A DNA stretch of 64,000 nt. It comes from a virus. Of this stretch, positions 40,777-43,292 are shown in pieces (position 1 is the stretch's first letter; each line of letters begins with the position of its first letter). The position numbers and the translations under genes are program-made. The notes under the pieces are model-generated. The model was given only the letters and a program-made list of their open reading frames with translations, did no database searches and had not been told where the DNA came from. Where the stretch lies: the IMG/VR virus record IMGVR_UViG_3300023106_000010, positions 22,911 through 86,910 of that record, one strand, 5' to 3'.

Positions 40777-41670
40777 CTACTCTCCGAATTTCTTGATATA
40801 TCCGTTACTCAAAGCTTCATAGAATTTGTTAACATAACTCTCGTCATAGAGAGCTTGAATTTCATCATAATGGTCGTAGCAGAACTTCCTAAACCACCCT
40901 GAAGAAATGCTTGTACTTAACTTCATCTGAGCCATGTCAAAAGCCCATTTACGATTTACATCTGGAAACGGGTGAATACTTCTCTCCAAGCTTAGCACAT
41001 ACATTTCTTCCAACGCTGCGTAAAGCTGAATCTCTTTAGGTAAAGTAAAGAACATGCTCTTAGACGTAAACACCTCTGTATCATCAGGCTTGAAATACTC
41101 GTAAGCTGGTTTGTCCAAGTGCTTCACGGCCAGATGGATATCGTCGTGCTCTAGTGTATAGATGCTCGCAGAGTTATCAAAGAAATCTTGCTTACTTTGA
41201 TTTAATTTTGGTAAAACATTATCATAAGTGTCTTTCTCACGCTGCTTAAAGAAATCCATGTACGATGGTCGAAGCTCGCATCCAAGCTTCTCAAGTGCCT
41301 GAATGTCACGTAAAGTCTTCAAGAAGTGTGGACTATCCTTCTTGTACTTGTGGGAGCACTTCAGAAGATAAAGGAAGTCCAAGGATGGAATCAACATACC
41401 TTCATGTTCGATTGTGTCCCAATCATTCTTCACAAATTCAATAAGCTTCTCAGCACGACTTCCTGTCCATGCCACTTCTACTTCCGTAATCTCACCGTCA
41501 GCAAACTTCATATAGATGCTATCACCACTCGAAATAGGATAGCACACTTTCGGCCTATGCTTTTTCTGATATTCTTCAGCTTCTTCATAAGTGCCTACCA
41601 AGTCAGTGTCCTGCGGCTCACGCCATTCTGGCACATGGTATTTAATAGCTTTGCTTCCGATGAGGATCAT
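40777..41670 (-). CDS. Nucleotidyltransferase-fold protein with C-terminal helical domain
   Basis: N-terminal LIGSKA...PQDTDL (hG[GS]...DxD), third acid in EVE, K.SH; C-terminal HDDIH, EE.YV..LER, GWFR. Confidence 0.65.
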   Translation of the reverse strand: MILIGSKAIKYHVPEWREPQDTDLVGTYEEAEEYQKKHRPKVCYPISSGDSIYMKFADGEITEVEVAWTGSRAEKLIEFVKNDWDTIEHEGMLIPSLDFLYLLKCSHKYKKDSPHFLKTLRDIQALEKLGCELRPSYMDFFKQREKDTYDNVLPKLNQSKQDFFDNSASIYTLEHDDIHLAVKHLDKPAYEYFKPDDTEVFTSKSMFFTLPKEIQLYAALEEMYVLSLERSIHPFPDVNRKWAFDMAQMKLSTSISSGWFRKFCYDHYDEIQALYDESYVNKFYEALSNGYIKKFGE

Positions 41671-41682
41671 ATCTTCTTTCTA

Positions 41683-41946
41683 TTAGCAGTCGTACGAGGA
41701 GCTATTCCAGTCAGGATGCAAACTATCTACAGCCTCAATCTCATTACTAAACATGCCGTAGCTGCCACCAAGCTTAATCTCAATACCAGAGATTTCTACA
41801 ACTTCTTTAATTTCTTTAAGAATGGTTTTGATAGCTTCAACTTTCTCAGCAACAACCTTTTTACCTTCTTTGGCTGTGAGAGTTGGGATGCCAGCTTGTT
41901 TCATAATTGCATCCAGACGTGCTTTACTGATTGTGATATTAGTCAT
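41683..41946 (-). CDS. Small protein with C-terminal WNSSSYDC
   Basis: SD AAGGA; member of a tandem family. Confidence 0.8.
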   Translation of the reverse strand: MTNITISKARLDAIMKQAGIPTLTAKEGKKVVAEKVEAIKTILKEIKEVVEISGIEIKLGGSYGMFSNEIEAVDSLHPDWNSSSYDC

Positions 41947-41964
41947 TTGTTAGTCCTTAATTAA

Positions 41965-42414
41965 TTAGCAATAAGAAGTCAACCACTCGGAGACATCACT
42001 TTCCATCGTGTCTAGCAGACTCCACAGCTGTTGGAAAGACGCACTTTCATCATAGCTAAAGATACCCTCGTCAAACTGAGTGGTGTAAGGATCGCCATAA
42101 GGGCTATATTCGCTCTGGCGGTCGTAATAAGGCAGATCATAACTAACACCAGAAACATCGCTGACAAACTTAGCATTCTTCAGAAGCTCCAGAGCTTGTG
42201 CACTGACAGCTTCCAGATCGATCTTTTCTTCGTCATCTTCATCGGCACTAACAATCTGTTCCAGAAATACTTTAGCATCCTTAATTGCATCAGCAATAAA
42301 CTTGCTAGCACCTTGACGAATAGATGCTCGCATTTGTGCTTGCTCTACTGCCAAAGCATCATAACGAACTTTCATTTCGGTCAGATTTACGCCATCGATA
42401 ATAATTTCTTGCAT
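41965..42414 (-). CDS. Protein with C-terminal WLTSYC
   Basis: SD AAGGAG; member of a tandem family. Confidence 0.8.
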   Translation of the reverse strand: MQEIIIDGVNLTEMKVRYDALAVEQAQMRASIRQGASKFIADAIKDAKVFLEQIVSADEDDEEKIDLEAVSAQALELLKNAKFVSDVSGVSYDLPYYDRQSEYSPYGDPYTTQFDEGIFSYDESASFQQLWSLLDTMESDVSEWLTSYC

Positions 42415-42434
42415 GATTTTCTCCTTAGTTTAAA

Positions 42435-42677
42435 TTAGCACGTTGCTGTGGAAGAAACCCACTGAGCACTATCAGACCACTTGTTGTAATTCTCAACACC
42501 ATCAGGATAGTACGTAGCTCCAGCACCATAACCAGCTTGCGCAGAACAACCTTCACCACCCCAAGGCAAATCAAACTCCACTTGAGCTTCATCTGCAATC
42601 TTAACACATTCGTTGAAAAGTTTATTCATGATTTCACAACGATCTGAGAGTTCTTTGTACGCTTGTTGTTTGTCCAT
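42435..42677 (-). CDS. Small protein with C-terminal WVSSTATC
   Basis: Start MDKQQA at 42677; member of a tandem family. Confidence 0.8.
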   Translation of the reverse strand: MDKQQAYKELSDRCEIMNKLFNECVKIADEAQVEFDLPWGGEGCSAQAGYGAGATYYPDGVENYNKWSDSAQWVSSTATC

Positions 42678-42679
42678 TG

Positions 42680-42874
42680 TTAGCAACCTTCTGCCGAAGA
42701 ACTTACCCAACCATTTTCATTGTCATAATAGCCACCATCACCATAACCTGCCGGGCCATCATAGCGAACGTAGTCCAAGCCAGCTTGATCTGCAATGTCA
42801 GCAATACGGCTGTACAGAACATCAATTTCGGCTTTCAACTCTACAATCTTTTTACTTGCTTCTTGCTTTTCCAT
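42680..42874 (-). CDS. Small protein with C-terminal WVSSSAEGC
   Basis: SD AAGGAG before ATG 42874 (MEKQEA); member of a tandem family. Confidence 0.8.
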   Translation of the reverse strand: MEKQEASKKIVELKAEIDVLYSRIADIADQAGLDYVRYDGPAGYGDGGYYDNENGWVSSSAEGC

Positions 42875-42884
42875 AATTTTCTCC

Positions 42885-43292
42885 TTAACGTACAGCAAAA
42901 TATAAATTCCCAATTCTCACATTCTTCTTAGTAAACTCGTGCGGAACATGGTTGAAGTAGAAATATCCACTCCTAATTGGACTTCGGTGTTTCAACAACT
43001 TAAATCCAAACTCTGCTTGCTCTGTTGTCAGTCGCCATGTCTTCAGCTTAGCAACCCAAGGATACTGACGAGGTTCCTTCAATACTTGATGCAAGCTCTT
43101 GTCAGAAATTATAGCACGATTGTAAGCGCTGTCAACAACTAAATTTTGTACTTTTACAGTCTCACCTCTGGCTTCGTACCAAGCTATCAACGTGACGGCT
43201 TCAAACCTCGAAGGAACCCTGTCAGAAATCCTAGCACATACTTCTGACGAAAGCAACAATCCTAACAGTAAACTTACCCATAACACTCTCAA
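42885..43292 (-). CDS. SleB-like cell wall hydrolase (Hydrolase_2) with signal peptide/TM
   Basis: WYEARGE, V....NR, V...P.QY.W, YF, RIGN.YF. Confidence 0.75.
   Translation of the reverse strand: MRVLWVSLLLGLLLSSEVCARISDRVPSRFEAVTLIAWYEARGETVKVQNLVVDSAYNRAIISDKSLHQVLKEPRQYPWVAKLKTWRLTTEQAEFGFKLLKHRSPIRSGYFYFNHVPHEFTKKNVRIGNLYFAVR

What the first reader, a model, noticed from the sequence alone, without database searches (positions are those of the whole stretch)
40777..42874. Array of four proteins ending in W-x-[ST]-S-x(1-4)-C directly upstream of a nucleotidyltransferase-fold enzyme
Seen: four consecutive co-oriented genes end in GWVSSSAEGC*, QWVSSTATC*, EWLTSYC* and DWNSSSYDC*. They share an amphipathic helix ending in IADQAGLDY / IADEAQVEF / VSDVSGVSY / VVEISGIEI, then a Gly/Tyr-rich linker (AGYGDGGYY, AGYGAGATYY), while lengths (64-149 aa) and the rest of the sequence diverge. 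The next gene, 12 nt downstream, has an hGS...DxD...E nucleotidyltransferase signature plus a second domain with HDDIH and EE..V..LER. Established: constant C-terminal tags on variable proteins beside an ATP-using enzyme typify ubiquitin-like conjugation and RiPP precursor/maturase systems. Inference: a phage post-translational modification system in which the enzyme NMPylates the Ser/Thr motif or activates the terminal Cys carboxylate for ligation or cyclisation. Alternatively, the small proteins are co-assembling subunits, decoys or inhibitors controlling a toxic NTase. This is a strong candidate for an undescribed system.
Basis: partly seen in the sequence, partly recalled or inferred. Interest (0 to 1): 0.88.

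Follow-up and report, generated by a model that had tools for sequence, protein, structure and literature searches.

The report
Cysteine-tailed phage proteins with nucleotidyltransferase
Four small acidic phage proteins that all end in the same Trp-x-x-Ser...Cys tail sit directly in front of a nucleotide-transferring enzyme, and the same pairing recurs in hundreds of unrelated large phages, so it is a real two-part phage system that no searched paper describes and whose chemistry is still untested.

Summary
Four adjacent minus-strand genes end in W-x-x-S-x(1-5)-C-stop. They are the only 4 of 1068 ORFs in the whole 86.9-kb phage with this ending. The next gene, 12 nt downstream, is a 297-aa DUF7277+DUF7275 protein with invariant GS...DxD...E.

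The pairing is not chance. In 80 metagenomic phage loci chosen only for the enzyme, 188 of 4175 same-strand ORFs carry the tail, against 0 of 4827 on the other strand. 75 of the 80 loci have 1-6 tail genes, usually within 50 nt upstream. In the reverse test, 20 of 21 tail genes found by an internal motif share a record with the enzyme.

RB69, JS98, Marfa, KARL-1, Mx1, REC and RsoM2USA have the module; T4 was not examined. Cellular genomes essentially lack it.

The tail family is large: 1922 clusters at 50% identity. The ten literature searches listed in the report found nothing on it.

This scan has already met the same system in at least 49 other genomes, and I agree with those reports.

The chemistry is untested. 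My best guess (0.4) is that the enzyme covalently modifies the invariant Ser of the client tails. Activation of the terminal carboxylate is disfavoured.

The parts
42680..42874 (-). Tail protein 1: 64 aa, pI 4.2, ends GWVSSSAEGC (10-residue tail from W to C)
   Evidence: phrog_899 E 1.3e-5. A5 HMM E 2.5e-10.
42435..42677 (-). Tail protein 2: 80 aa from the ATG at 42677 (the ORF extends to a TTG at 42710, giving 91 aa). Ends QWVSSTATC.
   Evidence: phrog_899 E 1.1e-7. A5 HMM E 1.7e-15.
41965..42414 (-). Tail protein 3: 149 aa, net charge about -19. Ends EWLTSYC (6-residue tail). The most diverged paralogue.
   Evidence: phrog_899 E 0.0018. A5 HMM not significant, 0.25. Relatives of 140-160 aa ending ..W..S.C occur in many related loci.
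41683..41946 (-). Tail protein 4: 87 aa, ends DWNSSSYDC (8-residue tail). It ends 12 nt before the enzyme start.
   Evidence: 14 orthologues aligned in A2, with W80, S83 and C87 invariant. A5 HMM E 4.5e-7.
40777..41670 (-). Two-domain enzyme, 297 aa. The N-terminal DUF7277 domain (aa 1-78, window 41437-41670) carries GS..DxD..E. The C-terminal DUF7275 helical domain (aa 100-281, window 40828-41373) carries KxSH, HDxxH, EE and ER invariants.
   Evidence: Pfam E 4e-13 and 1.7e-55. phrog_2141 E 6e-83. Invariant residues. hhalign to AbiEii and NTP_transf_5. Atlas structural neighbours.
43108..43135 (-). Candidate promoter for the array and enzyme: TTGACA-16-TATAAT, with TG before the -10 hexamer. 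It lies inside the 3' half of the upstream 135-aa gene.
   Evidence: A 12-of-12 consensus match. This is a pattern match only, not evidence of function.

Best explanation
This is a conserved two-component phage module.

Component 1 is an array of one to six small, mostly acidic client proteins. Each has four parts in order: an N-terminal amphipathic helix; a short strand followed by a YG(M)GG-type Gly/Tyr turn; a variable acidic linker; and a terminal W-x-x-S-x(1 or 3)-C tail.

Component 2 is a dedicated two-domain Pol-beta-type nucleotidyltransferase (DUF7277+DUF7275), usually encoded within about 50 nt downstream of the last client gene.

Most likely mechanism (inferred, not shown): the enzyme docks the tail, using the Trp as anchor, and transfers a nucleotide-derived group from an NTP to the hydroxyl of the invariant Ser. 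That would be protein O-nucleotidylylation, possibly repeated. The nearby Cys thiol would serve as a second ligand or nucleophile. Modification arms or switches the variable client bodies, which then act on host targets early in infection.

Shown here: the genetic coupling, the motif invariance, the homology of the clients, and the NTase signature.

Inferred: that the tails are substrates, which residue is modified, and what the biological role is.
For: 1. Coupling, forward. In 80 loci picked only by the enzyme, 188 of 4175 same-strand ORFs carry the tail, against 0 of 4827 opposite-strand ORFs.
- 73 of 80 loci are positive by the strict motif, and 75 of 80 when one residue after the Cys is allowed.
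- 176 tail genes lie upstream and 18 downstream. The median gap to the enzyme is 19.5 nt, and it is 50 nt or less in 49 of 72 loci.

2. Coupling, reverse. Of 21 tail genes found through the internal motif AYGMGGTY, 15 have the enzyme in the fetched locus. For 5 of 5 others it lies elsewhere on the same record. One contig was too short to tell.

3. Only these two gene families are conserved across the loci.

4. The invariant tail residues are W, S and C, the last two being nucleophiles. W+3 is Ser in 183 cases and Thr in 0. The Cys follows at S+2 or S+4 in 158 of 168 non-redundant tails.

5. There are several diverged clients per enzyme, from 1 to 6. Both tail lengths occur in the same locus in 31 of 66 loci. 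Tandem motifs occur within one protein. One client has an N-terminal WYL_2 domain. All of this fits a substrate or client array better than a single cognate inhibitor.

6. In the enzyme, G5/S6, D21, D23 and E63 are conserved. They align in register with the catalytic motifs of AbiEii and NTP_transf_5. The Atlas structural neighbours are NTase families.

7. Precedents for NTase-fold enzymes acting on a partner protein or peptide hydroxyl:
- MntA polyadenylylates HepT (PMC7641770 and PMC11586414; abstracts seen in the listing).
- PsmN is required for a modification at the C-terminal phospho-Ser of pseudomycoidin (PMC6993621; passages read).
Against:
- The fold assignment rests on weak scores. 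hhalign gives P 0.0016 and 0.0024 with probabilities of only 12-16%. Pfam AbiEii matches 2 of 35 members, below cut-off. The PDB profile search gave 0 hits. The Atlas model has pLDDT 0.65 and TM values of 0.38-0.50.
- In the closest characterised family (MenT/AbiEii), the small upstream protein is an inhibitor, not a substrate, and the enzyme acts on tRNA (abstracts of PMC10435456 and PMC11375011).
- Invariant W, S and C could equally be binding or metal-ligand residues.
- The C-terminal domain has many invariant polar residues (HDxxH, EE, ER) whose role this model does not explain.
Confidence: 0.4

Rival explanations
1. Regulator or antitoxin-like model. The enzyme's real substrate is something else: tRNA or RNA 3' ends as for MenT/AbiEii, or a small molecule. 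The tail proteins bind it as inhibitors, pseudo-substrates or activity switches, as MenA1 does for MenT1.
For: - The gene order, small protein upstream of the NTase, is the same as in MenAT1.
- The N-terminal helix of MenA1 controls MenT1 (PMC11375011, abstract and section headings; PMC10435456, abstract).
- Weak AbiEii similarity.
- The acidic bodies plus a Trp/Ser/terminal-carboxylate tail could mimic a nucleic-acid 3' end (my inference).
- Earlier scan agents named MenAT1 as the closest known system.
Against: - Up to six diverged paralogues per enzyme, variable bodies, a WYL_2 fusion and tandem motifs are unusual for a cognate antitoxin.
- The module is almost absent from cellular genomes: 7 MAG loci across 185,579 species genomes. 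MenAT/AbiE modules, by contrast, are common there; AbiEii was found in 38 of 81 sampled genomes.
- The enzymes are mostly acidic, with a median charge of -5.6 and 4 of 35 with pI above 7. MenT3 is described as having an electropositive substrate surface (PMC7450476 passage).
Confidence: 0.25
2. Adaptor model. The tail is a docking peptide for the DUF7275 domain. Each variable body binds a different host protein and brings it to the enzyme, which then nucleotidylylates the host target rather than the tail.
For: - A constant tail on variable bodies, with several paralogues per genome.
- The tail module is portable: it occurs behind a WYL_2 domain in L060.
- Both tail lengths are served by one enzyme.
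Against: - A pure docking motif would not be expected to need an invariant Ser and Cys with no Thr substitutions.
- No host-binding domain is recognisable in most bodies.
Confidence: 0.15
3. RiPP-like maturation. The enzyme activates the Ser by nucleotidylylation. Elimination gives dehydroalanine, and the Cys thiol adds to it, closing a small thioether (lanthionine-type) ring at the C-terminus.
For: - The Ser...Cys spacing is flexible but short: S+2 or S+4 in 158 of 168 tails.
- Tandem S..C units occur in one protein.
- Several precursor-like genes precede one enzyme.
- The layout resembles leader-helix plus C-terminal core.
- Recalled, not from any call: class III lanthipeptides use a S-x-x-S-x-x-x-C motif.
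Against: - No lyase, cyclase, leader peptidase, transporter or recognition-element gene is conserved nearby.
- Ser is never Thr, whereas lanthipeptide dehydratases, as I recall, take both.
- The conserved part here is the 'core' and the variable part is the body, the reverse of most RiPP families.
- I know of no NTase-driven dehydration.
Confidence: 0.1
4. No functional link. The tail is a family trait of a common phage protein, and its position beside the enzyme is inherited synteny.
For: Many of the loci are related phages, so the counts are not independent events.
Against: - The pairing holds in very different phage groups where all other neighbours differ. These are T4-like Mosigvirus, Dhakavirus, Marfavirus and Lazarusvirus, Otagovirus REC, Myxococcus phage Mx1 and the Ralstonia jumbo phage RsoM2USA.
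- The reverse test gave 20 of 21.
Confidence: 0.03

Closest known systems
MenAT1 (MenA1-MenT1) and the wider MenT/AbiEii DUF1814 nucleotidyltransferase toxin-antitoxin systems
   Same: - A short helical protein is encoded directly upstream of a bi-lobed Pol-beta-type NTase of about 300 aa.
- The GS...DxD motif aligns in register.
- AbiEii families are among the Atlas structural neighbours.
- The small partner controls the enzyme's active site (abstracts of PMC10435456 and PMC11375011).
   Different: - No significant sequence membership. The Pfam AbiEii model matches 2 of 35 members, below cut-off. A1 gives 0 PDB hits, although I recall MenT structures being in the PDB.
- It is found in phages rather than cells.
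- There are 1-6 partners per enzyme, all with an invariant W..S..C tail that MenA proteins are not reported to have.
- Toxicity and tRNA activity are untested.
HepT/MntA (HEPN-MNT, type VII TA), in which an NTase AMPylates its partner protein
   Same: An NTase-fold enzyme covalently nucleotidylylates a side-chain hydroxyl of the protein encoded next to it (PMC7641770 and PMC11586414; abstracts seen in the listing). This is the mechanism I favour here.
   Different: - The partners here have no HEPN domain.
- The enzyme has an extra 200-aa DUF7275 domain.
- The acceptor would be a Ser in a C-terminal tail. As I recall, the HEPN-MNT acceptor is a Tyr beside the RNase motif.
- Here there is an array of clients, not a one-to-one pair.
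PsmN, the nucleotidyltransferase-family tailoring enzyme of the lasso peptide pseudomycoidin
   Same: - An uncharacterised NTase-family protein with a DxD metal site is needed for a modification on the C-terminal (phospho)Ser of a ribosomal peptide encoded in the same cluster (PMC6993621, passages read).
- NTP_transf_5 gave the longest hhalign alignment to the phage enzyme, 176 columns, and an Atlas TM of 0.50.
   Different: - That PsmN belongs to Pfam NTP_transf_5 is recalled, not checked here.
- The phage loci have no lasso cyclase, kinase or transporter.
- The clients are 60-230-aa proteins, not short peptides.
CitX/MdcG holo-ACP synthases (recalled; no call made)
   Same: As I recall, these NTase-related enzymes attach a nucleotide-derived prosthetic group by phosphodiester to a strictly conserved Ser of a small acidic carrier protein. 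That matches the Ser-only, never-Thr pattern seen here.
   Different: No sequence similarity was examined. The carrier Ser in those systems is not in a C-terminal W..S..C tail.

Membership tests
Pfam DUF7277 + DUF7275 / phrog_2141 (enzyme) | Match above the curated cut-off to both domain models | tested here: met
   PF23942 E 4e-13 (50.3 bits, cut-off 27). PF23940 E 1.7e-55 (188 bits, cut-off 27). phrog_2141 E 6e-83. All 35 of 35 homologues match both models.
phrog_899 (tail proteins) | Match to the C-terminal 80 positions of the family profile | tested here: met
   All four window proteins match, at E 1.1e-7, 1.3e-5, 3.7e-4 and 1.8e-3. An independent HMM (A5) confirms three of the four.
Pol-beta superfamily nucleotidyltransferase | hG[GS]-x(9-14)-D-h-[DE]-h motif plus a third carboxylate on a later strand | tested here: met
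   IGS(5-6)...D21-x-D23...E63. The three carboxylates are invariant and G5/S6 are at least 90% conserved in 35 sequences. The motif aligns in register to the same motifs of AbiEii and NTP_transf_5.
Pol-beta superfamily nucleotidyltransferase | The alpha-beta-alpha-beta-alpha-beta NTase fold itself | tested here: inconclusive
The Atlas's own model has pLDDT 0.65. Its neighbours are AbiEii, DUF6036, DUF2204 and NTP_transf_5, at TM 0.38-0.50.
MenT/AbiEii (DUF1814, PF08843) | Significant match to the family model, or to solved MenT structures by sequence | tested here: not met
   - Window protein: no AbiEii hit at E up to 1.
- 2 of 35 homologues hit, best E 0.0088.
- hhalign P 0.0016 over only 31 columns, probability 16%.
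- PDB profile search: 0 hits at E up to 10.
MenT/AbiEii (DUF1814, PF08843) | Growth-inhibiting tRNA 3'-end nucleotidyltransferase activity, neutralised by the upstream gene product | not testable with these tools
   Needs expression and tRNA assays.
NTP_transf_5 (PF14907) | Significant match to the family model | tested here: inconclusive
   - 1 of 35 homologues hits, at E 0.15.
- hhalign P 0.0024 over 176 columns, probability 12%. This is comparable to AbiEii versus NTP_transf_5 (P 0.00054), and well above the unrelated control (P 0.34).
- Atlas TM 0.50 over 220 residues.
HEPN-MNT type VII toxin-antitoxin | Partner protein is a HEPN-domain RNase | tested here: not met
   No HEPN family was listed for the four window tail proteins or for 10 long relatives.
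Ubiquitin-like / E1 conjugation | C-terminal Gly-Gly on the small protein, and an E1 (ThiF/MoeB-type) adenylating enzyme | tested here: not met
   The tails end in Cys. No E1/ThiF-type family was listed among the enzyme's Pfam matches.
Canonical RiPP gene cluster | Precursor plus maturase, together with a conserved leader peptidase, transporter or recognition element | tested here: not met
   Clustering all same-strand ORFs from 83 sources gave only two widely conserved families: the enzyme (82 sources) and the tail family (71 sources). The next family is a secreted hydrolase-like protein in 20 sources.
Known anti-phage defence proteins (PADLOC) and NCBIfam named families | Any match | tested here: not met
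   PADLOC gave no hit at E up to 1. NCBIfam gave only three matches at E 0.04-0.28, far below their cut-offs. Tested on the enzyme, the four tails and two foreign tails.

The most novel reading that the evidence does not exclude
Large virulent phages of many lineages carry a dedicated protein-tagging system. A phage-specific nucleotidyltransferase writes a nucleotide-derived mark on the Ser (and perhaps uses the Cys) of a universal eight-residue tail. That mark arms a fast-evolving repertoire of small acidic effectors that take over or disarm the host. The repertoire comprises at least 1900 clusters at 50% identity. This would be a new class of phage post-translational modification, with its own portable substrate tag.
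Probability: 0.3. Interest if true: 0.88.

Novelty: new variant of a known kind. Interest (0 to 1): 0.78.

Why it matters
The module occurs in 731 of 50,697 deposited phage records. These include RB69-, JS98- and KARL-1-type phages that are studied and used in the laboratory.

Its partner family has at least 1922 clusters at 50% identity. None of the ten literature searches found a description of it.

If the tails are enzyme substrates, this would be a new phage post-translational modification with a short transferable tag. That would help explain dozens of orphan early genes, and could serve as a protein-labelling handle.

If the tails are regulators, it would be the first phage-borne counterpart of the MenAT/AbiE systems, with an unusual multi-partner layout.

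Either way, simple experiments in E. coli with RB69 or JS98 genes can decide between the two.

Tried and rejected
- Structure prediction of the enzyme and complex prediction of enzyme plus tail protein.
- PDB profile search with A1: 0 hits.
- Fused or longer forms of the enzyme: none found (weak evidence).
- Longer forms of the tail module, searched with alignment A4: none scored (weak evidence because candidates were crowded out).
- The search for related loci with tail alignment A5: no stretch was conserved enough.
- Whole-record search for tails with profile A5 in L062, L047, L082, prophi86-1 and ValKK3: nothing rang. But L047, which does have a variant tail gene, was also missed, so this blank says nothing.
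- RNA evidence: no RNA holder listed.
- The shared AYGMGGTY motif with S24 repressors, tested as possible homology. hhalign aligns only 14 columns around the motif that was itself used to select them, so I reject homology and keep it as a curiosity.
- A tail-enzyme fusion suggested by my ORF caller in L109 and L116. It was an artefact of an overlapping frame.
- Charge of the enzyme as a discriminator against RNA substrates: only mildly informative.
- Literature. Searches for DUF7275/DUF7277, RB69 ORF134c (23), the phrog ids (28), a C-terminal cysteine/nucleotidyltransferase/bacteriophage combination (29), PF14907 (88), phage-encoded/AbiEii-like/MenT-like (95) and motif strings (97) found nothing on this system. 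Supplementary files of papers were closed and not consulted. Phage proteomics or screen tables in supplements could mention these genes.
Full report
**What is in the window.** Between 40777 and 42913, all on the minus strand, lie four small genes followed by a 297-aa gene.
- The gaps between successive genes are 12, 18 and 20 nt.
- The 91-aa ORF overlaps its neighbour by 31 nt if read from its TTG. It has an ATG at 42677, 2 nt after the upstream stop, so it is probably 80 aa.
- The small proteins are acidic, with pI 4.05-5.35 and net charge -2 to -19.
- A perfect sigma-70-type consensus (TTGACA-16-TATAAT) lies at 43135-43108 on the same strand and could drive the set. This is a pattern match only.
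- The surrounding genes are small orphans with no PHROG function.

**Is it more than chance?** The expression W..S.{1,5}C at the very end matches 4 of 781 ORFs in the window. It matches the same 4 of 1068 ORFs in the complete 86,910-bp virus record of which the window is bases 22911-86910.

All four match the C-terminal third of phrog_899. A profile built only from foreign members (A5) finds three of them at E 1.7e-15, 2.5e-10 and 4.5e-7. It still finds them at 2.9e-15, 3.8e-11 and 1.4e-5 after the last ten residues are cut from both model and ORFs. So they are true paralogues, not unrelated proteins with a shared tag. The 149-aa protein is too diverged for this model (0.25 / 0.059).

The common plan is visible in alignments A3 and A5 and in the best database hits:
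- a helix of about 30 residues ending ..IADE.G;
- a short h-x-F-x-F strand;
- an (A)YG(M)GG.Y turn;
- an acidic or aromatic linker of variable length;
- G-W-x-x-S-S-x-x-C.

**The enzyme.** It matches Pfam DUF7277 (residues 1-78) and DUF7275 (100-281), and phrog_2141.

In 35 homologues of 43-72% identity the following are conserved:
- invariant: D21, D23, E63, K104, S106, H107, K118, T119, R144, H175, D176, H179, E221, E222, E229, R230, K250, S254, R261;
- at least 90% conserved: G5 and S6.

The N-terminal pattern is the Pol-beta nucleotidyltransferase signature. The evidence for the fold is as follows.
- A profile of the 35 finds nothing among PDB sequences.
- The ESM Atlas holds its own, mediocre model (pLDDT 0.65). 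Its structural neighbours outside the family are AbiEii, DUF6036, DUF2204 and NTP_transf_5, at TM 0.38-0.50. The C-terminal domain alone gave nothing convincing.
- I fetched 29 AbiEii and 19 NTP_transf_5 proteins from unnamed bacterial genomes and ran hhalign. The results were:

| Comparison | P-value | Columns | Note |
|---|---|---|---|
| A1 vs AbiEii | 0.0016 | 31 | covers the GS..DxD motif exactly |
| A1 vs NTP_transf_5 | 0.0024 | 176 | GS..DxD, the E-x-E-h-x-W strand and the first helices of the second domain, all in register |
| AbiEii vs NTP_transf_5 | 0.00054 | 158 | two accepted NTase families against each other |
| A1 vs unrelated control | 0.34 | 23 | negative control |

The hhalign probabilities are low (12-30%). 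I read this as follows: the enzyme is a member of the NTase superfamily. Its relation to these two families is about as distant as they are to each other. It is not a member of either family.

**Co-occurrence, forward.** A scan of IMG/VR with the enzyme alignment gave 80 loci of 34-59% identity.
- 188 of 4175 ORFs on the enzyme's strand carry the tail, against 0 of 4827 on the other strand.
- 188 of the 240 same-strand ORFs of at least 45 aa that end in Cys carry it.
- 73 of 80 loci are positive by the strict motif.
- Of the seven negatives, L017, L031 and L082 have 0, 243 and 365 nt of upstream DNA.
- L047 and L049 have a family member with one extra residue after the Cys (..WAPSNVCW..WSSSNCY).
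- L064 is a second enzyme copy on a contig whose first copy (L043) has a tail gene.
- L062 has none in the DNA fetched.
- Allowing one extra residue, the number of tail genes per locus is 0 (5 loci), 1 (19), 2 (19), 3 (21), 4 (10), 5 (2) or 6 (4).
- 176 tail genes lie upstream and 18 downstream. The last upstream one ends a median 19.5 nt before the enzyme start, and within 50 nt in 49 of 72 loci.
- Clustering all same-strand ORFs of 83 sources shows only two widely shared families. They are the enzyme (82 sources) and the tail family (71 sources; 182 members, 169 with the strict tail). The next family, a secreted hydrolase-like protein, is in 20 sources.

**Named phages.** tblastn finds the enzyme in 731 of 50,697 phage records. 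I looked at ten.
- Tail genes lie beside it in eight. These are Ralstonia jumbo phage RsoM2USA (2), Escherichia Mosigvirus AV114 (3), Shigella Mosigvirus Shf125875 (3; the genes are annotated as similar to RB69 ORF134c and ORF136c-139c), Dhakavirus JS98 (5), Klebsiella Marfa (5), Acinetobacter KARL-1 (2), Myxococcus Mx1 (1, with two W..S units) and Pseudomonas Otagovirus REC (3).
- They are absent near the two most distant matches. These are Mycobacterium prophage prophi86-1 (25% identity) and Vibrio ValKK3 (a partial match to residues 94-263).
- The module therefore has a boundary inside the wider enzyme family.
- In 185,579 species genomes only 7 loci were found, all in metagenome bins, and 6 of the 7 have tail genes. 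It is a phage system.

**Co-occurrence, reverse.** So I scanned IMG/VR for DNA encoding the internal motif AYGMGGTY, which gave 39 matches.
- 21 of them lie in tail genes. The script assigned 18. It mis-assigned L109, L116 and L126 because of an overlapping frame; I checked L109 and L116 by eye.
- 15 of the 21 have the enzyme in the fetched piece.
- For five others the piece was too short, and the enzyme was found elsewhere on the same record in 5 of 5.
- L108 is a 3.6-kb contig that ends 368 nt downstream.
- That makes 20 of 21, with one undecidable.
- 17 of the other 18 matches are in an unrelated protein (see below), and one is at a contig edge.

**Size and shape of the tail family.** A profile of 141 tail modules, searched against 1.84 billion representatives, finds 1922 clusters at E up to 0.001 and 363 at up to 1e-10. 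Of the best 150:
- 146 end in the strict tail;
- 3 have one residue after the Cys;
- 1 has none;
- 9 carry two or three tandem units, of the type W-N-S-S-G-C-E-W-E-S-S-G-C-Y...G-W-N-S-S-S-A-H-C.

In 168 non-redundant tails from the enzyme-selected loci, the W-to-C length is 6 (54), 7 (4), 8 (104), 9 (4) or 10 (2). So the Cys sits at Ser+2 or Ser+4 in 158 of 168. An even spacing puts Ser and Cys on the same face of an extended strand (my inference).

Both lengths occur in one locus in 31 of 66 loci, including this window.

The residue at W+3 is Ser in 183 cases and never Thr. The nine exceptions are mostly spurious ORFs.

One 190-aa member (L060) has an N-terminal WYL_2 domain above the Pfam cut-off, so the tail module is portable. 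No fused enzyme form was found.

**What it most likely does.** The genetics say the two parts work together. Three things point to chemistry on the tail rather than mere binding:
- the invariant residues are a Trp plus two nucleophiles;
- the Ser is never a Thr;
- one enzyme serves several very different bodies, two tail lengths and even tandem units.

NTase-fold enzymes that modify the hydroxyl of a neighbouring gene product are known.
- MntA polyadenylylates HepT (PMC7641770 and PMC11586414; I saw the abstracts in the listing).
- PsmN is required for a modification on the C-terminal phospho-Ser of pseudomycoidin (PMC6993621; passages read).

I therefore favour Ser O-nucleotidylylation of a client array, at confidence 0.4.

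The reason is the members with residues after the Cys and the internal repeats.

**Rivals.**
- *MenAT1-like reading (0.25).* The small helical protein regulates an NTase whose substrate is tRNA. It rests on PMC10435456 and PMC11375011 (abstracts and outlines) and PMC7450476 (passages). It keeps real weight because gene order and fold family fit. Against it stand the multi-paralogue arrays, the fusion, and the near absence from cellular genomes, where AbiEii itself is common (38 of 81 sampled genomes).
- *Adaptor model (0.15).*
- *RiPP-like thioether model (0.1).*
- *Pure synteny (0.03).*

**Earlier work in this scan.** Look-ups show that the same system was reported from at least 49 other genomes.

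I took the MenAT lead from those notes and checked it myself. By sequence it is a resemblance, not a membership.
- the reverse co-occurrence test;
- the even Ser-Cys spacing and the Ser-never-Thr counts;
- the tail-independent homology test;
- the calibrated hhalign comparison with NTP_transf_5;
- the WYL_2 fusion.

**Novelty.** Ten literature searches found no paper on the enzyme family, the tail family or the motif. Supplementary files could not be read.

Both Pfam and PHROGs hold the families as 'unknown function'. I class the finding as a new variant of a known kind: an NTase with a small encoded partner. There is a real chance (about 0.3) that it is a new kind of phage protein modification.

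Noticed in passing
L100-L136 (e.g. L101:3939-4613); window 42735-42758 region of tail protein 1 for comparison: The tail family's internal motif AYGMGGTY also occurs, letter for letter, in 17 IMG/VR contigs (13 distinct proteins). There it lies in HTH + Peptidase_S24 (LexA/CI-type) repressors, just before the S24 domain, where the self-cleavage site region lies. In both families it follows a short hydrophobic strand and precedes acidic residues. hhalign aligns only 14 columns, so this is a shared short motif, not shown homology. It may simply be a strand-turn-strand element.
   Followed up: partly
window 42885-43292 (-): A 135-aa protein with an N-terminal signal-like segment and a weak SleB/cell-wall-hydrolase match (Pfam Hydrolase_2, E 0.047) lies just upstream of the array. 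Relatives lie near the module in 20 of 83 sources. A perfect sigma-70 consensus sits inside its 3' half, at 43135-43108.
   Followed up: partly
L060:2458-3030: A 190-aa tail-family member carries an N-terminal WYL_2 (Sm-like SH3 barrel) domain: PF10902, E 3.9e-8, above cut-off. So the helix-turn-tail module can be appended to another domain.
   Followed up: no
L043 and L064 (same contig, IMGVR_UViG_3300012943_000029): One 157-kb phage contig carries two copies of the enzyme about 96 kb apart. Only one copy has a tail gene next to it in the DNA fetched.
   Followed up: no
L084 (Mycobacterium prophage prophi86-1) and L087 (Vibrio phage ValKK3): Distant relatives of the enzyme have no tail genes within 5 kb. 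One has 25% identity. The other is a 253-aa protein matching only residues 94-263. The prophage copy lies two genes downstream of a gene annotated as cysteine dioxygenase. The wider enzyme family may therefore have other partners.
   Followed up: no
window 42435-42710 (-): The mechanical ORF of tail protein 2 starts at a TTG that overlaps the upstream gene by 31 nt. An in-frame ATG at 42677, 2 nt after the upstream stop, is the more likely start (80 aa).
   Followed up: yes
whole window: The only run holding the full stretch is a leaf-litter metagenome, probably the source sample. Relatives of the enzyme at 50-72% identity sit on many contigs of 85-94 kb. This suggests a sizeable uncultivated phage group of that genome size.
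   Followed up: no
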